Virus record (IMG/VR): IMGVR_UViG_3300014819_000001
Span: 1-64,000 of that record
Reading direction: 5' to 3' (one strand)
From: a virus
Taxonomy: Duplodnaviria > Caudoviricetes
DNA length: 64,000 nt
In this document: positions 30,578 to 50,721 of the stretch, piece by piece
Numbering within the stretch: position 1 is the first letter of the stretch
How the letters are laid out: the number at the start of each line of letters is the position of its first letter
Program-made: the position numbers and the translations under genes
The notes under the pieces: model-generated
The model's database searches: none
Seen by the model: the letters and a program-made list of their open reading frames with translations, nothing else
Told to the model about the DNA's origin: nothing

Positions 30578-30724
30578 AGATTATAACGGACAGGGTGTTG
30601 CGATATCGCAACGGTCGAGTGCGGCCCGGGTGTTGTTGGAATACAACACGAACAGCAGAATTCAAACCCCAATCCAATACCCACACCGTTTGACAGGTCT
30701 CTTGAATGGCGCTACAATAAGAGC

Positions 30725-31054
30725 ATGGAAAAGACGAAACGCACTGCTCGCAAAGACTCAAACTTCATCATCTATGAAGCCGTTAGCGCCTCGGGTGAAA
30801 ACTATATTGGGCTGACCCGCAAGACGCAGAGCACCGTGCTCAAAAGCCTCAAAGAGCGTTGGAGAAAGCATCTTAGTCGTGCTCGCAACGAAGACAGAGC
30901 GTGGCGTCTCTACGAATATATGAGAGCAGAAGGGCTCGAAGTCACGTGGGAGCATAGGGTTCTTGCTATAGTACGGGGCAGAGCTGAAGCATACGCCCTG
31001 GAGAGAACCGTTGTAAAAGAACAACGGCCCACGTTGAATGACCAGTACTGCTAA
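30725..31054 (+). CDS. GIY-YIG-like nuclease domain protein
   Basis: IIYE...YIGLT...RW.KH...E...LN. Confidence 0.7.
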   Translation: MEKTKRTARKDSNFIIYEAVSASGENYIGLTRKTQSTVLKSLKERWRKHLSRARNEDRAWRLYEYMRAEGLEVTWEHRVLAIVRGRAEAYALERTVVKEQRPTLNDQYC

Positions 31055-31124
31055 AGACCCTACAGATTGACAGGTCTTTAGACCGATGCTACACTATAGA
31101 AACTGAAACACAACGGAGCACGAA

Positions 31125-33403
31125 ATGGCAAGATTGAAAGACGTAATGGTAGAACTACAGAACGAGATCTACCGTGCAGAACTCACGCTGGAGCAGATAG
31201 CAGTCAAGTACCATGTTCCTATGGACTGGGTGGACACGGCCTTTGCTGAGGTGCTGGAGCAGGAGCGTCAGGACTACGACATGGGTGACATTTTCCTCAA
31301 TGAGTTCGTAGAAGAGGACGAATAAGATGGCAAAGGCCTTGTATAAAGATGTTGAATACTTTGTGATCAGCACCCTGGGTGACATGATCGAACTGGCTCC
31401 TACGGCACACGGAGCAGGGTCTTTTATAGTTCATAAGGATTTTATAGATGGAGATCCCGCAATGGCCACACCCCTAACAGACCAGCAGTTCAAAGAATGG
31501 ACTGAGCGGACTTGGCGCCAGTGCCAGGAGCGGGCTTGGCAGGGATAACCCTACAGGTTGACAGGTCTTTGGACTGGTAGTATACTTATGAAACTGGAGC
31601 ACAAAGGAGCCGACAATGTGGAATAAAGAGGGTCATAAAGTTAGAGTCAACTATATGGGGCAAGAACTCGCGGGTATAGTGGTCGAGAGTCGTGTCAAAT
31701 ACGGCGGCAGGGGAGGGCATACCGTAGAACTCGACGAGCCCGTTCTACTCCGTTTCCGTACAGAGCCCGCCAGTAGAGTGCTGGTGGAAGAGCAAGATGT
31801 TGTTGAAGTCATTTGAGGAGCAGACAATGTATTCATGCTTGAGTGTAGCAGGTGGATGGCAGACTATGGTCAAGTCCACTGGCGAATTGATTGGACCCGC
31901 ATTCCATCAGATTGGTGACTTGTGGGTATGGCAACGAGCAAACCTTTATAAGGATTCAGTATGAGATTTTATGACTATACGGCCACCTTGCGGTTCAACA
32001 ACGAATTGACTGTTGAGCAGCCAATCCGTGCCAAAACCCAGGCAGATGCTTACGACATGGCAGTTACCATGTGTGAACTGACGGGTGCTGAATTGGTGTG
32101 CCTTAACAGAGAGGAAGACCAGTATAAGGAGGATCTCCAACTGGAGGCCCTCTATGAAGAACGTTATGATTTGGGGGACTAAGATGCGATATCCGGATTA
32201 TATGACACAGGAAGACATTGAGGCCTTTGAGATGGATATGGCCCGCTTTGACCTGGACCCCAGCGTGCCCTTTGACGACATCAATCGTAGGCTGCGTGAG
32301 TTGGCTTTGGAGCAGTTGGCAGAGCAGGCCCAACTGTTGCAATTTTACAACGACTAGCAAAAACCCTACAGGTTGACAGGTCTTTGGACCGGTGCTATAC
32401 TACGAACATGATGAAACAACAAGGAGCGATAGATGGCTAATATGACCTACTGTATGTGCGAGAATACTGCTAATGATCTCCAGGACGTAGTGAATCGTCT
32501 TGTGGAAGAGGGCACGGATTGGATTGAAGATATGAACGAATTTGAATTGCGCGGCTTGCGTGACATTGTACAGTTGGCCCATGCTATTGTAGAGTTGGCA
32601 GAGAATGGCGTGATTGACCTTCGTCGTTTGGGAGTAGAATGATGGAGGGCACTTGTCCAGTATGTATGGGATCGGGGCGAATGTCTGCGGATGGTAATTA
32701 TCATACTCGCCATCTCGTGGCGGGCTATGATCCAGTGACAGACACTTTTCCCTGTACCAACTGTGGTGGCCAATATATGCACGGTCGTCCTACCGGACGA
32801 GTACGCCTAAACTCCAACGGAGAACCCTGTGTTCATCGTTATCGTAGTCGCTCAGTGGGCCGTTGTTTGACAGAATACACCTGTGACCTATGTGGTGACA
32901 GTTATCAAATTGACAGTGGAGATTAATATGAGTGAAGTGCGACGCAGAGTAGATGTCCTAGTTCGTATGTGGATTGATGCGGACGCAGATGTTACTGAAG
33001 TGATACAAGAGATGGACTATCACTTTGAGCATAGTGCTATTGCGGAAACTGAAATTGTAGATGTAAAGGAGTTCTAAATGACCTACGCAGAATTGTTGAA
33101 AGAATTAGAGAATTTAGACCCTTCACGCTTGTTGGACACGGTGACCCTCTATGACAATACCAGAGACGAGTTCTACGCTGTGAAGGATTTCCAAATCGCT
33201 GTCGGTGATCTTACTGATGTCATCGACGATGGTCACGCCTACTTGGAGTTCTAAATGAGCCAAGCATTGAAAGCTATCGTAGACGGCTATAGCGATTTGT
33301 TGATCCAGGCCTTGGAGATTAAGGTTTCAGATCAACTATTGCACGAAATTTTGCTATCCATTGACAAAACCCATTTAGAAATCGAATCTGGTCTACTCAA
33401 ATA
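31125..33403 (+). other. Run of small, mostly acidic early ORFs (31125, 31327, 31616, 31961, 32184, 32433, 32639, 32928 and others)
   Basis: Co-oriented and tightly packed behind the repeated promoters; 32639 has CxxC pairs. Confidence 0.7.
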
Positions 33404-34179: not shown

Positions 34180-35867
34180 GTGAACATGATGAATAAGGAA
34201 CAAAGAATGATCTACGCTTTTGAAATTGAAACTCTATCCAAGTTGGACACGGCGGCTGTGGAGTCAGCCCTTCGTCGAAACTATCCCCAAGACCGTCTAA
34301 CCTCGAGCAAATTCGTAGGCATTACGGATGATGGGCAGTTTGCCTATCGTTGTAAATATCGGGAAGATGGCGAGGAGTCACAGGTAGCAGTGTATGTTTT
34401 TCGCAACAACCTTGGTGACATTGTAGCAGACTACTAAAGACCCTTGAGTTGACTAGGCTATTGAATGGTGCTATACTTATGAAACTGAAGCACAAAGGAG
34501 CAACTATGAACGTAGAACAGGGCTTTCTCATCGCAGAAACTGTAGAGGTACTCCCCCGCCTGAACAAAAGGGATCACATCTTTGCCGCACAGATGGTCAA
34601 ATTCTATGACGAGTTTGGCAAACTGAGTGCTCGTCAGGAGGCTGTACTGCGGGAGATCCTACTCCGTGCCCCTACTCAATGGATTGACAACGACGACTGC
34701 TACCGTCCCGAAGCAGAAAGCGCCTACAGGTGAAGCCTATGAACTCATATACACTCTCATGGCAGTTCCGCAATGAACACGAGTGGAGTAAGACCTTTGA
34801 CACAGATGACCAACGTTGGGATTTTACTTATCGCTGTGGATTGCAGACTCACCCAGACATTGTGCGAATTATTAGGACAGATCCCGACGGATCCCAACAA
34901 ATTCTAAAGGATGTGAAGGACTAATGGAATACCTTAAACAAGCAGAACTGTATGCAGAGGCCAGAGGTGACGAGTTCTACTTCAAAAACCTCTATACCCA
35001 ATTCAGAGAATTCAACGACGTTATAGATAGTGTATGGAAGACACTGAGCTATCTATACTCAAATGAAGTGGCGGATATGCTCACTTGCTGGAGTCACAGT
35101 GAAGATTATTAGACCTAAAACGCTATATTATGTAGCATTGAACAAGCCCCATACCTTCCCGGACGGTGGATGGAGCAACTACATCTCCACGCCCAGTCTG
35201 GGTCGTGCTCGCTACCTGGCTCGGAGACTGAAACGAGCAGTGAGACAGATTGATGTGCGGGTACGGGGCCAGCGTGGATCCTACGTTCTCCCTGGAAGTT
35301 GGCTCTAGCAAGAAAACAACAATAACCCTATAGGTTGACAGGTCTTTTGAACGAACATATAATACGACTATGATGACAACAAGGAGTGCAAGATGGGCTA
35401 CAAGGTATTGGGCAAGACAGAAGATCTTCTTAAGGGCTATGAGCCGCGCCAGGGTTTGGAGGGACCTTTCAACTTCAACGGGCGAGTACTCTACTACGAC
35501 CCACGGGCGGGAAAATACTACGACCCACGTACAGACTTCTACCTCTCCTATAACGAATGGTTTGAAATAGCGGGGCTGAAATGAAAGACTTGATTGTATT
35601 GATTGGCATTATGACGGCCGCGCTGGCTACGGCCATACTGTTACAACAGGGAGTTATCTAATGGTTAAGATAGAAGGACTCACAAAGAACCAAAAGATTA
35701 TAGCAGAATTCATGTGGAATCGGTGTGATACCCAGCGTGACGTAGAAGCCGTGCTAGAACTTTATGGACGGGACGCTCGTACTGTCTACGAACTGCTGAC
35801 TGCTACGGCCTTGGATCAATATATGGAAGTGGACGAGGCCCGTGTTATTTTACAACGGTTCCAATAA
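34180..35867 (+). other. Run of small early ORFs (34180, 34506, 34730, 34924, 35393, 35581, 35661 and others)
   Basis: Co-oriented short ORFs with RBSs behind the repeated promoters. Confidence 0.65.
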
Positions 35868-38066: not shown

Positions 38067-39021
38067 CTACACCGTTTAGGAGCCTAAGGACCCTGTGCCT
38101 GAGGGCTGGGCTAGGCGAGTGCGGCCGTTGTACTCTAGCAACACCTTGTAGTAGACTTACAACACAGGGTAAAGACCCTACAAGTTGACAGGTTTTTGGA
38201 ATGGACATATAATATCTACATACTGTAAACAAAGGAGCAACGAAATGGGAATGTGGACTACGCCAAACCAGGACTCGCTGAACATTGTACTAAAGAAGTT
38301 CAGTGAGGCCGCACACCAAAGATATCATCACAGTCATGCCTTCGAAGCAGGCTACTTGCAGAGTGTTCTCATATACTATATGCAGCATCTTCCCGCAAGA
38401 AAGCAGAAGCAGTTGATTGCAGACATGGTGGAGGCCACTCGCCGGCAGGAGCAGGCTCTCATGGAGCGTAGGGCCGCTGAGCAGAGTGGATTCTTCGTAG
38501 AACAGGTAAAAAGACCCTGCGATTGACAGGGGTATTGATTGGTAGTATAATATGGTTATGCTGTTAAACAAAGGAGCTGACAATGGACAAGGAACTGTTT
38601 AAGAGAGATCCCAGAGACTTTGCCTTAAGTCTTGTAGAAGATGGCTTGGTAGATCCCATGCTCATGCTCAGTGAGGCACTGAACTGGCTGAGCACGGATG
38701 AGGTGCGTGACATGTTAGATGCCAACGAACTGAGCCCACGCTTTGCCTACGATGAGGAGGATCTAGATGATGAGTAAGGCCATGGCTTGGACAGCGACTA
38801 CGATCAGTAATGGTCTAGCTGTGCGTGTGTGTACACATACACACGAACACATATACATGCCCACCAGTGCGGCTGTTGTGAATGGGCAACGATTAACGGC
38901 TAAACAATTAGCCAAATTCAATAAGGCAAGGCTTGACAAGTTCTGTGTTCGATAGTACAATATGACTATGCTAAAAGATTAGCATTAATACTAACAGAGT
39001 TAAATACGAAAGGCAAATAAG

Positions 39022-39405
39022 ATGGCAACCAGTAAATTATTCACAGTAGCAGGTATCAGCAAGAGAGAAGGCGAGTACAAGGTACGTTTCGCCAATGATG
39101 TCATGCGTGTCAAAGTACTAATGAAGGGTGGACACGAGGATGTTCGTCTAGTAGAGTTGGATCAGCCCAGTACCAAGCTTGAGGCTGTGAAAGTATTACG
39201 TACAATGGCCGAGTTCAGTGATGTCATTGCACAGGCTACCTTTGCAGACTTCATTGACTCAAATACTCCTAAGGCTAAGACGGAGAAGGCACCTAAGGCT
39301 GTGAAGCCTGAGAGCTCACCCAAGGCTACTAAGGCACCAGCAGAGAAGAAGAGTGCGAAGAGCACGTACGATGAGGTAAAAGACATGGAGGATGCTCCGT
39401 ACTAA
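39022..39405 (+). CDS. Hypothetical protein with Lys/Ala/Pro-rich tail
   Basis: FTVAGIS...KVRFAND..R.K.L.K.GH.D; histone-like tail. Confidence 0.75.
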   Translation: MATSKLFTVAGISKREGEYKVRFANDVMRVKVLMKGGHEDVRLVELDQPSTKLEAVKVLRTMAEFSDVIAQATFADFIDSNTPKAKTEKAPKAVKPESSPKATKAPAEKKSAKSTYDEVKDMEDAPY

Positions 39406-39595
39406 TGAGTTGGGAATTGTATGAAGTCATGGCCACAGACGATCGTGGCCATCAAAGTCTGTATTATGCTACAAAGAGTCTTAAAGAAGCAAGACAAATG
39501 GCACTACAGGCCTTGAAGGAAGGACATGTTTACGCCGAAGTCAATAGGGAAACCGAGGATGGAGACAGTGAGCAGGTCTATGCTTGCGGTACAAG

Positions 39596-39669
<74 letters not shown>

Positions 39670-39674
<5 letters not shown>

Positions 39675-39808
39675 TATTCTAGCACATTCAACACTGCGGC
39701 GTTCTGTCCATCCCTGATTCGAATCGGGATATCGCCAAGCATTTCAAGCCCCGGTCGCTCCGGTCTGGTGCCTAAAAAAGAGATGGAAGAGTGTGCTAGA
39801 ATATGGTG
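39670..39808. ncRNA. Candidate structured RNA bounded by a perfect 17-bp inverted repeat
   Basis: CACCATATTCTAGCACA (39670-39686) and TGTGCTAGAATATGGTG (39792-39808), with internal hairpins. Confidence 0.5.
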
Positions 39809-39821
39809 TCGGTAACATTCT

Positions 39822-39850
39822 ATTATAATACCAATAACAGGCCCTGTCAA
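39822..39850 (-). promoter_or_regulatory. Minus-strand consensus sigma-70 promoter aimed at the inverted-repeat element and tRNA
   Basis: TTGACA (39850-39845)-17-TATAAT (39827-39822). Confidence 0.8.
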
Positions 39851-39994
39851 GCAGAACCATACAGGGATCCTGGGTATAGGTTGTAGATCGACAACATTAT
39901 AGGTAGTATAACGGTGGCCTAGAATACCCACACAGGTTGACAGGGTATTAGAACCCCTGTATAATGCTTGTATAGTAAACAACAAGGAGCTGAG

Positions 39995-40282
39995 ATGTTG
40001 GCAACGACTAAAATTGTGCGTCTGTTTGCACGTTTCATTAACATGAAGAGTTTTGGCTATGCTGGCTCTTTTACAGACAAGTGCAAGCAGGACCACAGCT
40101 TGCGACATGTGGCGTTTAGGCTTTATAGCCGAGCAGAAGCAGACAAGTTGGCTAAAGAACTTGAGACTATGCTTTTTTTAGCAGGCTACACCAACAAGGT
40201 GAAACGTACCTCTTGTGACTGCGACGTGCAATTGCGAGTTGGCGGTGGAGAGTATGTGCGAGTAAAGGCACTATTAGGCTAA
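39995..40282 (+). CDS. Hypothetical early protein
   Basis: Follows the promoter at 39937 and an AAGGAGC RBS. Confidence 0.7.
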   Translation: MLATTKIVRLFARFINMKSFGYAGSFTDKCKQDHSLRHVAFRLYSRAEADKLAKELETMLFLAGYTNKVKRTSCDCDVQLRVGGGEYVRVKALLG

Positions 40283-40292
40283 GGATTATAAC

Positions 40293-40619
40293 ATGCTAAA
40301 GAATATGACTATGACACACTTTGCAGAGGGCTGTGTAGAGCACAGCTTCACTGTTATAGATTCTGCGACTTGCGATGGCTCAAGTCTGTGGATGAACAGT
40401 AAAGGTATGAAGTTCAATGTAGATGCTATAACGATCAGGCATCTTGCCCTAGCAGACAGGATTGTAACAGAAGTCCTAGTGGCACACGATGGTCCCTGGG
40501 AAGTCTACACTGACAGGGGCTTTGAACAAGATGTCAGCAGGATCGTAGGCTTCCCAGTGAAGTTCACAGAACAAGGCATGCAGGAACTGGGCATAGCCAG
40601 CCTGGAACCCGCTAAATAG
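40293..40619 (+). CDS. Hypothetical early protein
   Basis: YTD.GFE...FTEQGMQ. Confidence 0.7.
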   Translation: MLKNMTMTHFAEGCVEHSFTVIDSATCDGSSLWMNSKGMKFNVDAITIRHLALADRIVTEVLVAHDGPWEVYTDRGFEQDVSRIVGFPVKFTEQGMQELGIASLEPAK

Positions 40620-40625
40620 ACACAG

Positions 40626-40652
40626 GCCCGTATGGTGGAATAGGTAGACACA
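40626..40652 (+). pseudogene. 5' remnant of a disrupted tRNA-Leu
   Basis: GCCCGTATGGTGGAATAGGTAGACACA = acceptor 5' strand plus Leu-type D arm. Confidence 0.85.
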
Positions 40653-40704
40653 AATCATGTTGGTTCTCCGTGTTTATTATAAATAAATGTAGAAGGGGAT
40701 CAAT

Positions 40705-41142
40705 ATGAATTATTTAGATAAACCAAAAGAAGAAAGAAAACAACATTTAAGATTAAACACTCCTTGTAAAGAGCGTGGTGGATACTCAACAATGTTCCGT
40801 GGATTGCTAGCAGACTTTTTAGGCACTGATATTTTTATAGAAAAGAAAATAGTACTATGTCATGCTTGTCACAATGCAAAATGTTCTAATCCCGAGCACC
40901 TTTATTGGGGGTCCTACAAAGAGAATATAGATGATCAAATCGCTAATGGAACTTGGAAAAGTGCATGGGATCGCTCAGTAGATAAGTATGGTTACGAAGA
41001 GGCTTGTCGTAGGAATTCAAGAGGCAACAAGGCATCAGGAGGAAAGGCTAATAAAGGTAAACCTAAATCAGAAGAACATAAAAGGAAGATTGCAGAAGCG
41101 ATAAAGAGTAAGTATAATAGAAGTCATGCTCCGATGGCGTAA
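40705..41142 (+). CDS. HNH homing endonuclease with NUMOD3 motif
   Basis: LCHACHNAKCSNPEHLYWG...EN..D; KGKPKSEEHKRKIAEAIK; TATAAATA at 40678. Confidence 0.85.
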   Translation: MNYLDKPKEERKQHLRLNTPCKERGGYSTMFRGLLADFLGTDIFIEKKIVLCHACHNAKCSNPEHLYWGSYKENIDDQIANGTWKSAWDRSVDKYGYEEACRRNSRGNKASGGKANKGKPKSEEHKRKIAEAIKSKYNRSHAPMA

Positions 41143-41212
41143 TAGGTAGCCGCAGTGGACTTAAAATCCACTTCTTTCGGGAGTCCCGGTTCGAGTCCGG
41201 GTCGGAGCACCA
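41128..41212 (+). tRNA. tRNA-Leu(TAA)
   Basis: GCTCCGA/TCGGAGC stem, GTGGA-CTTAAAA-TCCAC anticodon arm, long variable arm, GGTTCGAGTCC, ACCA. Confidence 0.92.
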
Positions 41213-41216
41213 AAAG

Positions 41217-41234
41217 GTCCGGCTACGGGCACCA
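41217..41234 (+). pseudogene. 3' remnant of the disrupted tRNA-Leu
   Basis: GTCCGGC-TACGGGC-ACCA; TACGGGC pairs exactly with GCCCGTA at 40626. Confidence 0.85.
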
Positions 41235-41235
41235 A

Positions 41236-41312
41236 CTGACTGTAGCTCAGTAGGATAGAGCAACGGATTTCTAATCCGTCGGTCGGGGGTTCGAATCCCT
41301 CCAGTCAGGCCA
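41236..41312 (+). tRNA. tRNA-Arg(TCT)
   Basis: CTGACTG/CAGTCAG stem, ACGGA-TTTCTAA-TCCGT anticodon arm, GGTTCGAATCC, GCCA. Confidence 0.92.
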
Positions 41313-41692
41313 AAATACCCACACAGGTTGACAGGTCTTTAGAACGAACGTACAATACGAACATACAGACACAGAAAGGAACACAGATGTTTGACACTAT
41401 CCTGATCTACATTCTACAGAACTTGGGCCAACCCACACTGGCCAGCAGCCTCTTGGACCCAGACTACGATGGCACCTTAGGCTTCTACACTTCCCTGGAT
41501 GAGGCACTAGAGGCACAACGAGCCGCAGAACAACAACACCTCAGCCTCTACGGCACACTAGATCTCACTGACTTCTATATTCTTTCAGTGCCCATCCACA
41601 CTGTGAACTTAGCCAATACCCACACGGGTTGACAGGCTTTTAGAACCTGCGTATACTACGAACACTTAGACATTAACACAAAGGACTAGCAA

Positions 41693-42025
41693 ATGGAACA
41701 ACAGGTACAACAGGCTGTAGAACAAGCACTCCAAGCCGCTAACAGCCAAGCACGTAAGAGCTTAGAACTACGTGGTGATAGGGACGCTTGTGGCTTTGCT
41801 TGGGTAGACGTCTACGGCGTTAGGGCTAACAGTAAACTGGGTCGGGCACTGTTAGCAGCAGGCTTTACTCGCAATGGCTACGAGCGTAGCCTACAGTACT
41901 GGAACCCCAGCAGACTAGGCGTACAGAGTGTAGGCATACTGGAGGACGGCGCTGAAGCCTTTGCACAGGTCCTGAAGGCTCAACTTGGACTTGAGCGTGT
42001 ATACGCAGGCAGTAGACTAGACTAG
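41693..42025 (+). CDS. Hypothetical phage early protein
   Basis: DACGFAWV...SRLD; last gene of the early module. Confidence 0.75.
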   Translation: MEQQVQQAVEQALQAANSQARKSLELRGDRDACGFAWVDVYGVRANSKLGRALLAAGFTRNGYERSLQYWNPSRLGVQSVGILEDGAEAFAQVLKAQLGLERVYAGSRLD

Positions 42026-42036
42026 GCCCCCTTTAG

Positions 42037-42070
42037 GTCCTGATGTGAGTACACCGTCAGGACTTTTTTT
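42037..42070 (+). terminator. Rho-independent terminator closing the early module
   Basis: GTCCTGA...TCAGGAC followed by seven T. Confidence 0.85.
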
Positions 42071-42454
42071 ATCTCTGAAGGATGTCTTGGGTGGTGGCTT
42101 ATAAAAATAAATTATATATTTTATAGCGCTGCTGCTACAGAACCCATGGTGGCAGAAAAACCCCCTGAAAACTCTAAGTACTTCATATTAAAAAATTTTT
42201 TTACAGCTTTTTTTTAGTGTAGACCCGGTTCGGATTCTGCTAAATAATTCTTGAAAGGATCTGTATTATGATAGACTATAGTGAGATTGATTTAGCTGTA
42301 TGGGTTGAGGTCATAGGATTTATCATATTTCTAGGATTTCTAGCCAGTTCTAGTCTGGGCAGTCGGCAAGAGGTCAAAGATTACGATTTAGATCGTTGGA
42401 ATAAGTAAATTCTGTGTAATCAAAACTCCATAATTCTAGTGTAAATATAGTATT

Positions 42455-43108
42455 ATGGCCAAGCCCCGAGCAGCAGTTTTGCTGAACCATCCCCAGTGTA
42501 GCCTACACAGTGCACACGGTCTAGTAAGGGTATTGTCATCTTTATATGGACTCACCAACGTAGACTGTATCAGTCCAGACCAGTTAACCTTACAGAGATT
42601 ACGTAAGTATCAGTTATTCTGTGTGCCCGGTGGCCTAGGGGATGCGGACAGTTGGCATAGATTATTAGAGCCCTCCAAGCCCTTAGTCCAGCAGTACTGT
42701 TTAGAGGGTGGGCATTATCTTGGCATCTGTATGGGAGCCTACTGGGCCGGTCCCTTATATTTTGATCTAGTCAAGGATATCAATCCAGTGCAGTATATTC
42801 GGCGTCCCGGAGCCAGTGTACGTCGTAGTTACAGCACAGTAGTTAATGTTACTTGGATGGGTCATAATGAAACCATGTTTTTTTATGATGGGTGTAGCCT
42901 ATTAGGAGCCAAGCCTTCTAGTAGCATAGCCAGTTATACTAATGGTGACTGTGCGGCCCTAATTGAGGGTAGGGTTGGTCTAATTGGGCCTCATCCAGAG
43001 AGTGACAGTTTTTGGTATATGGATCGCTATATGCAGCAGCATTGGCATCAGTATACTCATCATGCTTTGTTAGCAGATTTCATAAGATTATTGGTTAATA
43101 AGTTGTAA
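42455..43108 (+). CDS. Class I glutamine amidotransferase-like (BPL_N-type) protein
   Basis: VPGG, YLGICMGAY, GPHPE. Confidence 0.8.
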   Translation: MAKPRAAVLLNHPQCSLHSAHGLVRVLSSLYGLTNVDCISPDQLTLQRLRKYQLFCVPGGLGDADSWHRLLEPSKPLVQQYCLEGGHYLGICMGAYWAGPLYFDLVKDINPVQYIRRPGASVRRSYSTVVNVTWMGHNETMFFYDGCSLLGAKPSSSIASYTNGDCAALIEGRVGLIGPHPESDSFWYMDRYMQQHWHQYTHHALLADFIRLLVNKL

Positions 43109-49260: not shown

Positions 49261-50721
49261 TTATGTAAAAACTCTAATATTATGAGTTTGTTGAAAATAT
49301 TCTGCATCTTTAATATCATGCACTAGAGGTTGTCCTTTAATATTCAAGCTGGTGTTAAGCAACATAGGGCATCCTGTTTTTAAAAACCAATATTCTAAAA
49401 GTTGTCTAATTCTTGAACCATCTTTAGGTACTGATTGTACACGACTTGTTCCATCCTTGTGTACTATAGCAGGAAATTGCTCTGGATGTCTACATCTACT
49501 GGTGTATTGCATATATCTATGATGTCGAGGGGAACCCAATATTTCAAAATGTTCTGTAACGTATTCCTCAAGTATCATAGGAGCGAACGGTCTAAATTCT
49601 TGTCTACGTTTTATTTGATTAACACGGTCCTTAATATCAGGACCTCTTGGATCAGCAAGTAAGCTACGATTTCCGAAAGCTCTCGGACCAAATTCTTCTC
49701 TACCTTGAGCTACCCCACATATTTTATGTTCAATTAGATAATCGACTATTTGATTAACATCTGTTGTAGGTTCTATATTATGTCCTAGAAATGCATCTTT
49801 CCATCCTATGTTTTTTCTTGTATGTGCTAAAATTGCGCCCAAACTACTACCTGCATCACCAGGATTAGGCATAATCCAAATATCATTAAAATATTCAAAT
49901 GCTATAGAGTTAGCACTACAATTAAGAGCACAACCTCCCATTAATACTAGATTTTTACTAGGTACCAAAGACCTAGCCTTATTCAATGTAAAATCAAATA
50001 CTTTTTCATAAACACATTGAGTAGAGGCAGCAATATCAAATAAATCTTGTTTTGATTTCAGATCAGTCTTCCAATCTTTACAGCCACGATGTAGATTTTT
50101 TTTAAATTTTATATTTGAATAGGATGCATGAGTAAAGAAATCATCAAAAATATCAAAATAAAATCTATTAGGGTCACCAAAAGCAGCCATACCCATTAAT
50201 ATATATTCTTCTTCGTTAGGTTTAAGACCAATACGATCTGTCATAGCACTGTACCAAAGACCTATACTATTAGGATATTTTAAACTAAATTTTTTAATTA
50301 GTTTAGATCCTTCTGCCTGCCAAATACTCAAAGTTTCAAATTCACCTATAGCATCTATTACAAGTACACAGGCTCGATCAAACCCACTAGTAAAATATCC
50401 AGCAGCAGCATGGCTTAGGTGATGATTAACATTAATAATTTTTGATTTAGTATGATCTTTAAAATATTTTTTTAAAGAATTATTAATGATACCTTGTCCA
50501 GCTAAAAATTGTCTTAAACTTTTATTCCAAGGATTTTCGTGTTGAATGATTAGATTGGGAGGTCCATATTCTAATGCTGCTTTTATCAAATTAGAATCTA
50601 TATCACTATCGTTCTTAATTTTACTATAACGTTCACTATGAGCAGCAAATAATATCTGATTATCAGATACTATTGACAGACTACTGTCGTGGTTATTAGC
50701 ATTGACACCCCAATAAATCAT
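49261..50721 (-). CDS. Carbamoyltransferase (NodU/CmcH family)
   Basis: HDSS, HHLSHAA, DAIGE, GGCALNC, EFGPRAFGNRSLLADPR, RPFAP, LNTSLN. Confidence 0.93.
   Translation of the reverse strand: MIYWGVNANNHDSSLSIVSDNQILFAAHSERYSKIKNDSDIDSNLIKAALEYGPPNLIIQHENPWNKSLRQFLAGQGIINNSLKKYFKDHTKSKIINVNHHLSHAAAGYFTSGFDRACVLVIDAIGEFETLSIWQAEGSKLIKKFSLKYPNSIGLWYSAMTDRIGLKPNEEEYILMGMAAFGDPNRFYFDIFDDFFTHASYSNIKFKKNLHRGCKDWKTDLKSKQDLFDIAASTQCVYEKVFDFTLNKARSLVPSKNLVLMGGCALNCSANSIAFEYFNDIWIMPNPGDAGSSLGAILAHTRKNIGWKDAFLGHNIEPTTDVNQIVDYLIEHKICGVAQGREEFGPRAFGNRSLLADPRGPDIKDRVNQIKRRQEFRPFAPMILEEYVTEHFEILGSPRHHRYMQYTSRCRHPEQFPAIVHKDGTSRVQSVPKDGSRIRQLLEYWFLKTGCPMLLNTSLNIKGQPLVHDIKDAEYFQQTHNIRVFT

What the first reader, a model, noticed from the sequence alone, without database searches (positions are those of the whole stretch)
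40626..41234. A tRNA inside a tRNA: homing-endonuclease cassette that replaces tRNA-Leu with its own diverged copy
Seen: a tRNA-Leu 5' piece (GCCCGTA plus D arm, 40626-40652) and a matching 3' piece (GTCCGGC-TACGGGC-ACCA, 41217-41234) have perfectly complementary acceptor strands. They flank a late promoter, an HNH-NUMOD3 gene and a complete but different tRNA-Leu(TAA). The old anticodon arm, variable arm and most of the T arm are missing, so splicing cannot restore the old tRNA. The HNH stop codon lies within the new tRNA (15-nt overlap), and a TTGCAG-17-TATAAT promoter (41090-41118) for the tRNA is embedded in the HNH coding sequence. Known: free-standing homing endonucleases such as T4 SegB spread within tRNA clusters. 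Inference: a self-contained cut-and-replace drive element in which the nuclease and a cleavage-resistant tRNA are physically interlocked. It could also swap in tRNA alleles resistant to host anticodon nucleases.
Basis: partly seen in the sequence, partly recalled or inferred. Interest (0 to 1): 0.82.

Follow-up and report, generated by a model that had tools for sequence, protein, structure and literature searches.

The report
Homing nuclease cassette replacing phage tRNA-Leu
A small mobile gene cassette, made of a DNA-cutting enzyme gene fused to its own spare leucine tRNA gene, has landed inside and destroyed a freshwater phage's leucine tRNA gene, and dozens of relatives in other phages have the same build.

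Summary
Three close relatives (L009-L011) carry an uninterrupted 87-nt tRNA-Leu(TAA) at this locus. The window keeps its first 28 nt (40626-40653) and last 17 nt (41218-41234). The middle 42 nt are replaced by 564 bp (40654-41217): a conserved leader, a 145-aa His-Me-finger nuclease ORF and a complete, different tRNA-Leu(TAA) that overlaps the ORF by 15 nt. Lake metagenomes hold both the filled and the empty allele, with a contig joining exactly 40653 to 41218. The architecture is a family trait. Of 89 distinct homolog loci, 74 have a tRNA-Leu at the ORF end and 35 have a tRNA-Leu 5' fragment upstream. In 16 of the 34 loci with both a fragment and a cargo tRNA, a 3' remnant completes the fragment's acceptor stem (control 33 of 1096). 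Near-identical cassettes sit in different tRNA-Leu genes and genomic contexts (L154/L157; window/L119). Best reading: a free-standing homing-endonuclease cassette specialised on phage tRNA-Leu genes that carries a replacement tRNA. Cleavage specificity and cargo immunity are inferred, not shown. The 'late promoter', the internal tRNA promoter and the anticodon-nuclease idea are not supported. No description was found in six literature searches.

The parts
40293..40619 (+). Upstream phage ORF (108 aa, no family). It is the synteny anchor shared with relatives that lack the cassette.
   Evidence: L009 89%, L010 94%, L011 85% aa identity
40626..40653 (+). 5' remnant of the resident tRNA-Leu(TAA): acceptor 5' strand GCCCGTA, the complete D arm and two further nt.
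   Evidence: 27 of 28 nt identical to the intact tRNA of L009-L011. The exact 26-mer is also the 5' half of intact tRNA-Leu(TAA) genes in L001 and L002.
40654..41217 (+). Inserted cassette, 564 bp, replacing 42 nt of the resident tRNA.
   Evidence: Alignments A1/A2. A contig in run X12 joins 40653 to 41218 with 42 other letters between. Loose ends in run X11 at the same two places read on as the intact tRNA.
40645..40676 (+). Inverted repeat at the left end. TAGACAC of the retained D arm (40645-40651) faces GTGTTTA of the cassette (40670-40676). Function unknown.
   Evidence: Across 21 loci 83.6% of cells pair, against 22-54% for slid controls. Covariation 0.193 against 0.141 in shuffles (1 of 500). 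RNAalifold predicted no consensus pair. The window's own fold is not exceptional (z -0.59) and does not use this pairing.
40678..40685 (+). TATAAATA box of the conserved cassette leader (GTGTTTA..ATAAATAA). It resembles a T4-type late promoter, but function is unverified.
   Evidence: Conserved in the leader alignments. Not enriched in the window (7 found, 10.0 expected).
40705..41142 (+). Nuclease ORF, 145 aa. His-Me-finger core of the I-PpoI / HNH_3 type, with a basic C-terminal tail that has a NUMOD3-like motif.
   Evidence: invariant H53 C55 N57 C60 N62 P63 H65 N74; I-PpoI E 1.6e-4
41090..41118 (+). TTGCAG-17-TATAAT inside the ORF, 9 nt before the cargo tRNA. A possible but weak sigma-70-type promoter.
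   Evidence: Sequence. Not called by the scan. TATAAT at 4-13 nt in 12 of 74 cargo loci, nine with the same TTGC(A/G)G spacing.
41128..41212 (+). Cargo tRNA-Leu(TAA), complete, 85 nt. It overlaps the last 15 nt of the ORF. It is the only tRNA-Leu in the 109-kb record.
   Evidence: 67 of 90 aligned columns identical to the resident allele, with the same anticodon loop.
41218..41234 (+). 3' remnant of a GCCCGTA-type tRNA-Leu: T-stem 3' strand, acceptor 3' strand TACGGGC, ACCA.
   Evidence: 17 of 17 nt identical to L009-L011. The same 17 nt follow the same cargo tRNA in L119.
41236..41312 (+). Neighbouring tRNA-Arg(TCT). It is not part of the cassette and is present in the relatives too.

Best explanation
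This is a free-standing homing-endonuclease cassette that specialises on phage tRNA-Leu genes.

Shown:
- A 564-bp unit has replaced the middle 42 nt of the resident tRNA-Leu(TAA) of this freshwater phage. The unit is a conserved leader, a 145-aa His-Me-finger nuclease and an overlapping complete tRNA-Leu(TAA).
- The resident gene's first 28 nt and last 17 nt remain on either side.
- Close relatives and co-occurring populations keep the intact gene.
- The same architecture recurs in most homolog loci, always breaking the target just after the D arm.
- Near-identical cassettes sit in different tRNA-Leu genes.

Inferred:
- In a mixed infection the nuclease cuts a cassette-free tRNA-Leu gene, probably in or near the anticodon arm.
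- The break is resected and repaired from the cassette-bearing genome.
- The conserved D arm on the left and the T arm/acceptor on the right serve as the only homology needed.
- The anticodon arm of the target is lost, so the target cannot be restored. The cargo tRNA supplies the lost function.
- The cargo D arm differs from the remnant's. This plausibly protects it from cutting and from recombination that would delete the nuclease gene.
- The ORF/tRNA overlap ties the two together. By analogy with T4 segB/tRNA-Arg, tRNA 5' processing would remove the ORF's stop codon, which may keep nuclease expression low.
For: 1. Empty site. L009-L011 have the intact 87-nt tRNA at the same locus. No nuclease homolog was found in their records of 183, 122 and 8 kb.

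2. Population polymorphism.
- An X12 contig joins 40653 to 41218 with 42 letters between (depth 146).
- In X11, loose ends at both junctions read on as the intact tRNA. The filled allele is also present there (a contig over 40591-41081, 0 differences, depth 8).
- X7 holds the filled allele at depth about 294.

3. Family architecture.
- Viral set: 30 distinct loci including the window. 23 have a + strand tRNA-Leu starting 36 nt before to 10 nt after the ORF end, and 16 have a 5' fragment.
- Independent metagenome set: 59 distinct loci. 51 have a tRNA-Leu and 19 have a 5' fragment.
- Matching 3' remnant (full 7-bp acceptor complement followed by RCCA): 16 of 34 loci, 8 of them all Watson-Crick. 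Mismatched-locus control: 33 of 1096, 3 all Watson-Crick.
- 0 of 34 fragments keep an anticodon loop.

4. Mobility.
- The L154 and L157 cassettes are nearly identical (91% mean column identity over the whole aligned stretch, unrelated flanks included). They sit in two tRNA-Leu genes with different acceptor stems and D loops and unrelated flanks, each with self-complementary halves.
- The window and L119 share 186 nt with 4 differences (ORF end, cargo tRNA and remnant) in unrelated contexts.

5. Nuclease. The catalytic and zinc residues are invariant in 27 sequences. The only solved relative is the homing endonuclease I-PpoI. 211 clusters at 50% identity match at E<=1e-30. Only 6 hits appeared in 185,579 species genomes, all on contigs of metagenome-assembled genomes (MAGs).

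6. Like replaces like.
- The cargo anticodon (TAA or TAG) changes once on the nuclease tree of 72 labelled rows, against 12-17 changes in 200 shuffles.
- Remnants ending in 'GC' after the D stem have TAG cargo in 6 of 6 loci. 'GC' at that place occurs in 14 of 42 distinct TAG tRNAs and 0 of 80 TAA tRNAs.

7. The cargo D arm differs from the remnant D arm in 33 of 34 loci.

8. Precedent. SegB cuts inside tRNA genes, and tRNA-Arg processing cuts its mRNA next to the stop codon (PMC2330249, passages read; PMC13096335, passages).
Against: - No biochemical evidence exists for cleavage, target site or cargo immunity.
- The nuclease domain scores below Pfam's curated cut-offs (25.2 against 27 bits). 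The fold match to I-PpoI covers only about 40 residues (Foldseek E 0.1).
- 15 of 89 distinct homolog loci have no downstream + strand tRNA-Leu.
- 54 of 89 have no recognisable 5' fragment under my criterion. That criterion was built from the fragments themselves, so the D-arm uniformity of the remnants is partly circular.
- 18 of 34 loci lack a matching 3' remnant.
- The closest nuclease (L139, 82% aa) carries a different cargo tRNA. Nuclease and cargo are therefore not strictly co-inherited.
- One cargo tRNA (L094) has the same D arm as its remnant. This argues against the D arm alone giving immunity.
- The insert's G+C (0.39) equals that of the whole window (0.382). It is lower only than the near flanks (0.42-0.51).
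- All read evidence is from contigs, which cannot show expression. X12 is an RNA library that may contain DNA.
Confidence: 0.8

Rival explanations
1. The nuclease is a homing enzyme, but its target is not the tRNA-Leu gene. tRNA clusters simply tolerate insertions, the tRNA-Leu rides along by co-conversion, and the nested structure in the window is a one-off illegitimate recombination.
For: Free-standing nuclease genes are common in phage tRNA clusters (PMC2330249, passages). 15 of 89 homolog loci have no adjacent + strand tRNA-Leu. In cultured phages the few homologs show no annotated tRNA-Leu, for example Citrobacter phage Ursula, where the gene sits after tRNA-Ile2.
Against: - The left junction falls at the same tRNA position, just after the D arm, in all 34 loci with a fragment and cargo. 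None keeps an anticodon loop.
- Matched acceptor halves occur in 16 of 34 loci, against 3% in controls.
- The downstream tRNA is Leu in 74 of 89 loci. No other tRNA stood first after the ORF in any metagenome-set locus: the only other calls (Met, Gly) lay about 50 nt downstream, behind the Leu.
- Nuclease clades track the Leu isoacceptor.
Confidence: 0.08
2. The cassette is kept mainly because it benefits the phage. It may exchange tRNA-Leu alleles to escape host tRNA-cleaving defences, or exclude competing phages. Homing is then secondary.
For: - SegB-driven changes at a tRNA locus help T6 escape Septu, which cuts the variable loop of tRNA-Tyr, another long-arm tRNA (PMC13096335, abstract and passages).
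- The old and new tRNA-Leu here differ in the variable arm and the stems.
- The L095/L119 pair and the stacked scars in L104 indicate serial replacement of alleles.
Against: - The anticodon loops of the old and new tRNA are identical.
- No defence that targets tRNA-Leu was examined or is implied by any search.
- Presence/absence polymorphism, with the empty allele more abundant in two of the four runs laid, fits a selfish element as well.
- This rival does not exclude the main reading.
Confidence: 0.1
3. It is an intron-like or split-gene arrangement. The outer tRNA pieces would be rejoined at the RNA level, by a group I intron as in cyanobacterial tRNA-Leu(UAA) or by an archaeal-type intron.
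For: The outer pieces have perfectly complementary acceptor strands.
Against: - The outer pieces lack the anticodon arm, the variable arm and half of the T arm.
- No group I intron or other ribozyme family appears at E<=10 in 39000-42500.
- The break is after the D arm, not in the anticodon loop.
Confidence: 0.01
4. It is an assembly chimera of two phages that share tRNA-Leu sequence.
For: The window comes from a metagenome assembly, and tRNA genes are repeats that can mis-join contigs.
Against: - The filled junctions are covered by separate contigs in runs of different studies with 0-1 differences (X7 over 40512-41081 and 41052-41262; X11 over 40591-41081).
- The same architecture is seen in dozens of contigs from other samples.
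Confidence: 0.01

Closest known systems
T4 SegB (GIY-YIG free-standing homing endonuclease in the T4 tRNA gene cluster)
   Same: - It is a free-standing nuclease gene inside a phage tRNA region.
- It cuts within tRNA genes, recognising the conserved T-arm motif.
- It drives preferential inheritance of itself plus neighbouring tRNA genes.
- Its mRNA is cut next to the stop codon by maturation of the downstream tRNA.
(PMC2330249, abstract and discussion passages; PMC13096335, passages.)
   Different: - The nuclease fold is different: GIY-YIG there, a His-Me finger here.
- SegB sits between tRNA genes and relies on flanking phage homology.
- Here the cassette sits inside one tRNA gene, destroys it, carries a same-isoacceptor replacement, and is flanked by the two halves of the target.
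- It is specific to tRNA-Leu rather than to many tRNAs.
I-PpoI (His-Cys box homing endonuclease of a Physarum rDNA group I intron)
   Same: It is the only solved relative of the nuclease core. The alignment covers the active-site and zinc-loop stretch (profile E 1.6e-4 over residues 46-79; Foldseek probability 0.90 over 41 columns, 39% identity). The aligned His, Cys and Asn positions are invariant in the family.
   Different: I-PpoI is intron-encoded, eukaryotic and 162 aa, with a different DNA-binding sheet. Here the protein is free-standing, phage-borne and 145 aa, with a different N-terminal part and a basic helical tail. The overall TM-score is only 0.2.
[quoted passage not shown]
   Same: They are nuclease genes located in a phage tRNA cluster. 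Control of their expression by tRNA transcript processing has been proposed (mentioned in PMC2330249, passage).
   Different: I did not see the primary paper (Akulenko et al. 2004; only its citation). No nested tRNA or replacement tRNA is mentioned in the passages I read. tblastn of the window protein against 50,697 phage records gave 4 hits, none in a T5-like phage.
Free-standing homing endonuclease genes in fungal mitochondria that come with partial duplicates of the neighbouring gene (atp6, cox1, atp9) and leave pseudogene pieces
   Same: The logic is the same: cut a conserved gene, insert next to or into it, bring a replacement copy of the lost part, and leave the displaced piece as a remnant (PMC7487136, passages). 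The Allomyces atp6 case is recalled from memory and was not read.
   Different: Those are protein genes in organelles with LAGLIDADG or GIY-YIG enzymes, and only a gene end is replaced. Here a whole tRNA gene is carried and both ends of the target remain.
Group I intron of tRNA-Leu(UAA) in cyanobacteria and plastids
   Same: It is a mobile-element insertion in a tRNA-Leu(UAA) gene.
   Different: That intron sits in the anticodon loop and splices out, restoring the tRNA. Here there is no ribozyme, 42 nt of the tRNA are gone, and function is restored by a second gene.

Membership tests
Free-standing homing endonuclease gene (intronless homing) | Encodes a nuclease with intact catalytic residues and is not inside an intron or intein. 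| tested here: met
   The ORF is intact. The His-Me-finger motif is present with H53, C55, N57, C60, N62, P63, H65 and N74, all invariant in 27 homologs. No intron family was found.
Free-standing homing endonuclease gene (intronless homing) | Presence/absence polymorphism at the same locus among close relatives, with sharp boundaries. | tested here: met
   L009-L011 have the empty site. The empty and filled alleles co-occur in lake runs, with a join at 40653/41218.
Free-standing homing endonuclease gene (intronless homing) | The same element is found in different genomic contexts (mobility). | tested here: met
   L154 against L157. Window against L119.
Free-standing homing endonuclease gene (intronless homing) | The enzyme cuts the element-free allele at or near the insertion site, and the element-bearing allele is resistant. 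| not testable with these tools
   Indirect only. The junction position is constant, and the cargo D arm differs from the remnant D arm in 33 of 34 loci.
Free-standing homing endonuclease gene (intronless homing) | Nuclease-dependent, one-way gene conversion in mixed infection. | not testable with these tools
   No cultured phage or host is available. Only 4 partial tblastn hits in 50,697 phage records.
HNH / His-Cys box (His-Me finger) nucleases | Match to a curated family model above its cut-off. | tested here: inconclusive
   For the window protein, zf-His_Me_endon scores 25.2 bits (cut-off 27) and HNH_3 16 bits (cut-off 24.8). All 27 members match zf-His_Me_endon at E<=1, best 4.2e-6. PHROG HNH families reach 2.6e-10.
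HNH / His-Cys box (His-Me finger) nucleases | Beta-beta-alpha metal-finger fold around the catalytic His and Asn. | tested here: inconclusive
   The AlphaFold model (pLDDT 85) has strands 49-53 and 66-70 followed by helix 71-80. The best fold matches are I-PpoI chains, but at E 0.1.
NUMOD3-containing homing endonucleases | NUMOD3 DNA-binding motif. | tested here: inconclusive
   Not reported for the window protein at E<=1. 6 of 27 homologs match, best E 0.011. The likeness of the G-K-P-K-S-E-E-H-K tail to NUMOD3 is otherwise from recall.
tRNA-Leu(UAA) group I intron | Ribozyme core, insertion in the anticodon loop, exons that make a whole tRNA. | tested here: not met
   No intron family at E<=10. 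The break is after the D arm, and 42 nt of the tRNA are absent.
SegB-like GIY-YIG nucleases | GIY-YIG domain. | tested here: not met
   No GIY-YIG family among the Pfam or PHROG matches.

The most novel reading that the evidence does not exclude
The flanking tRNA halves are working parts rather than mere scars. The cassette carries both halves of its own homing site (D arm on the left, T arm/acceptor on the right). It could therefore home into any tRNA-Leu gene of the right isoacceptor in any phage, with no other homology. This would drive serial succession of tRNA-Leu alleles across unrelated phages: yesterday's cargo becomes today's target. It would also account for tRNA fragments in phage tRNA arrays. 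A bolder extension is that cargo alleles are selected for escaping host tRNA-cleaving defences.
Probability: 0.35. Interest if true: 0.85.

Novelty: new variant of a known kind. Interest (0 to 1): 0.72.

Why it matters
- Homing endonucleases normally avoid harming the host in one of two ways. They hide in a self-splicing intron or intein, or they sit between genes and depend on flanking homology. This cassette shows a third solution for an RNA gene: destroy the target and bring a spare copy.
- tRNA-Leu genes are conserved across phages. The target itself could therefore supply the homology for spread between unrelated genomes.
- If confirmed, this is a widespread driver of tRNA-gene turnover in large phages (211 protein clusters at E<=1e-30; 74 of 89 examined loci with cargo).
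- It would explain orphan tRNA fragments and 'pseudo-tRNAs' in phage annotations.
- It would provide natural nucleases that recognise a specific tRNA gene, together with natural resistant alleles.
- It also gives a field system: filled and empty alleles co-occur in lake metagenomes sampled from 2011 to 2025.

Tried and rejected
- Near and distant DNA searches of the phage collection found only generic tRNA matches. No relative of the window was found.
- tblastn of the nuclease against cultured phages gave 4 partial hits, none with an annotated tRNA-Leu beside it.
- G+C as evidence of foreign origin was dropped. The insert (0.39) is like the whole window (0.382).
- 'T4-type late promoter' was dropped as a functional claim. 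The window's own repeated promoter-like element is TTGACA-17-TACAAT.
- The internal tRNA promoter was not called by the scan.
- A left-end hairpin was not predicted by RNAalifold or by folding the window alone. Only a pair count on a structure I drew from the sequences supports it, so it is reported as unexplained.
- Rfam on L119 and L095 found only tRNAs. The conserved stretch downstream of their cassettes stays unidentified.
- The Foldseek search of the PDB gave no match at E<=0.001. No further fold search was run.
- Cellular genomes gave 6 weak or partial hits, all on MAG contigs.
- RNA-library contigs over 40878-41169 (depth 6) are not counted as evidence of transcription, because DNA can be present in such libraries.
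- Parts of the stretch without cover in some runs are not interpreted.
- Literature: six answered searches found no description of a nuclease plus replacement tRNA nested in a tRNA gene. Subscription journals and supplements were not searchable, so the absence is provisional. PMC1524935 (passages) mentions tRNA pseudogenes in T4-like phages only as counts.
Full report
**What is there.**
- The window belongs to a 109-kb IMG/VR virus record. Its near-identical DNA is held by freshwater and lake metagenomes from ten studies.
- At 40626 a tRNA-Leu begins (acceptor GCCCGTA, full D arm) and breaks off after 40653.
- At 41218-41234 stands the matching end: T-stem 3' strand, TACGGGC, ACCA.
- Between them lie a short leader, a 145-aa ORF (40705-41142) and a complete tRNA-Leu(TAA) at 41128-41212 (ARAGORN; Rfam 56.8 bits). 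The tRNA overlaps the ORF end by 15 nt.
- A tRNA-Arg(TCT) follows at 41236. It, the inner tRNA-Leu and a tRNA-Met are the only tRNAs in the 109-kb record.

**The empty site exists.**
- The upstream ORF (40293-40619) found 76 related viral loci.
- The three closest (L009 89%, L010 94%, L011 85% aa) have an uninterrupted 87-nt tRNA-Leu(TAA) 9 nt after the ORF stop, followed by tRNA-Arg(TCT).
- Alignment shows the window keeps nt 1-28 (one change, A13->G) and the last 17 nt. It lacks the 42 nt between: anticodon arm, variable arm and 5' part of the T arm.
- The relatives' records (183, 122 and 8 kb) contain no homolog of the nuclease.

**Both alleles occur in natural populations.**
- In run X12 a contig of depth 146 joins 40653 to 41218 with 42 other letters between.
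- In X11, loose ends at 40653 and 41218 read on as the intact tRNA. A contig with 0 differences (depth 8) carries the filled left junction.
- In X7 the filled allele is at depth about 294.
- X13 holds a diverged filled allele (34 differences in 803 nt).
- All of these are contigs, so they show presence, not expression.

**The protein.**
- Pfam gives zf-His_Me_endon (E 2e-5, 25.2 bits, under the 27-bit cut-off) and HNH_3 (E 0.01). PHROGs gives HNH endonuclease families down to 2.6e-10.
- In an alignment of 27 homologs, H53, C55, N57, C60, N62, P63, H65 and N74 are invariant.
- A profile of that alignment finds only I-PpoI among solved structures (E 1.6e-4 over the active-site stretch).
- An AlphaFold model (pLDDT 85) again matches I-PpoI best, but weakly (Foldseek E 0.1, 41 columns).
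- NUMOD3 is at best faint: 6 of 27 members, best E 0.011, and not the window protein.
- The family is sizeable. 211 clusters at 50% identity score E<=1e-30 and 830 score E<=1e-10.
- It is essentially viral. There were 6 hits among one genome each of 185,579 species, all on MAG contigs, and 4 partial hits in 50,697 cultured-phage records.

**The architecture is a family trait: viral contigs.**
- 49 viral loci encode relatives. I analysed the 35 with near-full-length matches (L085-L118 and L128).
- I dropped 6 loci with identical regions (L087, L103, L109, L111-L113) and added the window, giving 30 distinct loci.
- 23 of 30 have a + strand tRNA-Leu (TAA, TAG or CAA) starting 36 nt before to 10 nt after the ORF end.
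- 16 of 30 have, 21-63 nt before the ATG, a tRNA-Leu 5' fragment: a 7-nt acceptor plus a D arm within 3 errors of a consensus.
- The 14 partial hits (L119-L127 and L129-L133) were left out, except L119, which I studied separately.

**The architecture is a family trait: metagenome contigs.**
- This is an independent test set of 80 loci. 21 were dropped because the nuclease protein was identical to another locus, leaving 59 distinct.
- 51 of 59 have the tRNA-Leu, and 19 of 59 have the 5' fragment.

**Both sets together.**
- 45 of 74 cargo tRNAs overlap the ORF, 17 of them by exactly 15 nt.
- In the 34 loci with both a fragment and a cargo tRNA, a 7-mer followed by RCCA within 150 nt after the cargo tRNA pairs fully with the fragment's acceptor in 16 loci. 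In 8 of these the pairing is all Watson-Crick.
- Pairing each fragment with the downstream region of another locus gives 33 of 1096 (3 all Watson-Crick).
- None of the 34 fragments is followed by an anticodon-loop motif. The break is always just after the D arm.
- The right boundary varies. It runs from keeping the variable arm and T arm (L154, L157, L173) to keeping only the acceptor strand (L085).

**Mobility.**
- L154 and L157 carry nearly the same cassette. Mean column identity is 91% over the whole aligned stretch, which includes the unrelated flanks. The leader, ORF, cargo tRNA and the inner part of the 3' remnant differ at few positions outside one divergent stretch in the ORF.
- Their flanks are unrelated. 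The disrupted tRNAs differ in acceptor stem (GCCTCCT against GCCCGCT, each matched by its own 3' end), in the D loop and at positions 26-28.
- The variable-arm and T-arm part of the 3' remnant is nearly the same in both. This suggests the inner part travels with the cassette and only the outer ends are local.
- L119 is a different phage by its genes. It holds the last ~30 codons of the ORF, the same cargo tRNA and the same 17-nt remnant: 186 nt with 4 differences from the window. Run X11 also contains this variant.
- L119 and L095 are homologous downstream of the cassette. At that shared locus L119 has a TACGGGC remnant and GCTCCGA-type cargo. L095 has GCTCCGA/TCGGAGC remnants and GCGACTG-type cargo.
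- The same acceptor stem therefore appears as cargo in one phage and as wreck in another. The two versions differ at 4 D-arm positions. L104 shows two stacked 3' scars. Together these suggest serial replacement.

**Specialisation.**
- On a tree of 86 nuclease proteins, the cargo anticodon (55 TAA, 17 TAG) needs one change, against 12-17 in 200 label shuffles.
- With the 'none' and CAA rows included, the tree needs 14 changes, against a shuffled mean of 28.8. Relatives share labels, so this shows clustering, not co-evolution.
- Remnants with 'GC' after the D stem have TAG cargo in 6 of 6 loci. 'GC' at that place occurs in 14 of 42 distinct TAG tRNAs and 0 of 80 TAA tRNAs in these loci. The target and the cargo therefore seem to be the same isoacceptor.
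- The cargo D arm differs from the remnant D arm in 33 of 34 loci, typically by 3-7 of about 19 positions.
- One caveat applies. The remnants were found with a D-arm consensus, so their uniformity is partly built in. The unforced alignment of all leaders also shows degraded GGTAGACAC-like cores in loci that failed the criterion.

**How it most likely works.**
- The pieces fit intronless homing. The nuclease cuts a cassette-free tRNA-Leu gene, and the break is repaired from the cassette-bearing genome.
- Only the tRNA sequence itself is shared between unrelated phages. Exchange therefore resolves in the D arm on the left and in the T arm/acceptor on the right. This leaves the local acceptor halves outside the cassette.
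- The cargo tRNA replaces the lost function.
- All of these steps are inference. What is shown is the filled/empty pair, the constant left junction, the matched halves and the same cassette in different targets.
- The ORF/tRNA overlap has a precedent in T4 segB, whose mRNA is cut next to its stop codon during tRNA-Arg maturation (PMC2330249, discussion passage). The same could damp expression here.

**Points that do not hold.**
- TATAAATA (40678-40685) is part of a leader conserved across the family (GTGTTTA..ATAAATAA). In this window the octamer is not enriched (7 found, 10.0 expected). The phage's own repeated promoter-like element is TTGACA-17-TACAAT.
- TTGCAG-17-TATAAT was not called by the scan and is conserved only in a sub-clade, where it also encodes K-Y-N.
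- The old and new anticodon loops are identical, so nothing points to anticodon-nuclease escape.
- The insert's G+C is not anomalous against the whole window.

**Unexplained.**
- The retained TAGACAC of the D arm can pair with the cassette's GTGTTTA.
- Across 21 loci 83.6% of cells pair, against 22-54% when slid. Some changes are double-sided (A-U to G-C in 2 loci at one pair, 5-6 at two others). Covariation is 0.193 against 0.141 (1 of 500 shuffles).
- RNAalifold predicted nothing, and I drew the structure from these same sequences. Its role is open: insulator, processing site or DNA-level signal.

**Comparison and novelty.**
- The closest system is SegB of T4 (GIY-YIG), which cuts in tRNA genes and drags tRNA genes along (PMC2330249; PMC13096335).
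- The nearest logic is that of fungal mitochondrial free-standing nuclease genes, which come with partial duplicates of neighbouring genes and leave pseudogene pieces (PMC7487136, passages).
- The differences here are four: the nuclease type, the insertion inside an RNA gene, the carriage of a whole replacement tRNA, and the target halves kept as flanks.
- Six answered literature searches found no description of this arrangement. Subscription papers and supplements were out of reach.
- I rate it a new variant of a known kind.

Noticed in passing
window 30676-30726, 31053-31121, 32359-32435, 35321-35367, 39923-39963, 41314-41360: A repeated ~50-nt element containing TTGACA-17-TACAAT recurs upstream of genes. 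It is probably this phage's own early or middle promoter family.
   Followed up: partly
L104:3509-3575: Two stacked tRNA-Leu 3' scars, with different acceptor strands, follow the cargo tRNA. The first is fused to a short D-arm piece. It looks like the record of successive invasions.
   Followed up: partly
L119:1875-2045 and L095:1700-1870: About 170 nt downstream of the cassette are conserved between two phages, and L119 encodes a Ro/TROVE-like ORF nearby. No Rfam family reached its gathering score there. It may be an undescribed structured RNA.
   Followed up: partly
L091:3412-3497: Here the tRNA-Leu next to the nuclease ORF lies on the opposite strand, and no 5' fragment is seen. It may be an inverted or different arrangement.
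   Followed up: no
L092:1500-1573; L118:2902-2978; L097:4282-4668: ARAGORN calls three unusual genes in large phage contigs: a CTA-anticodon (amber-reading) tRNA, a tRNA with a four-base anticodon (ttgt), and a permuted tmRNA.
   Followed up: no
L010:395-405 and run X13 at window 41230: A 9-nt insertion (ACCAACTAA) lies between tRNA-Leu and tRNA-Arg. It occurs both in an empty-site relative and in a diverged filled allele. It duplicates the tRNA 3' end and spacer.
   Followed up: no
window 49261-50721 (-): A Nol-like carbamoyltransferase (PHROG 1601, E 3e-95) sits among the replication genes (DnaB-like helicase, primase). It looks like an auxiliary metabolic gene of this freshwater phage.
   Followed up: no
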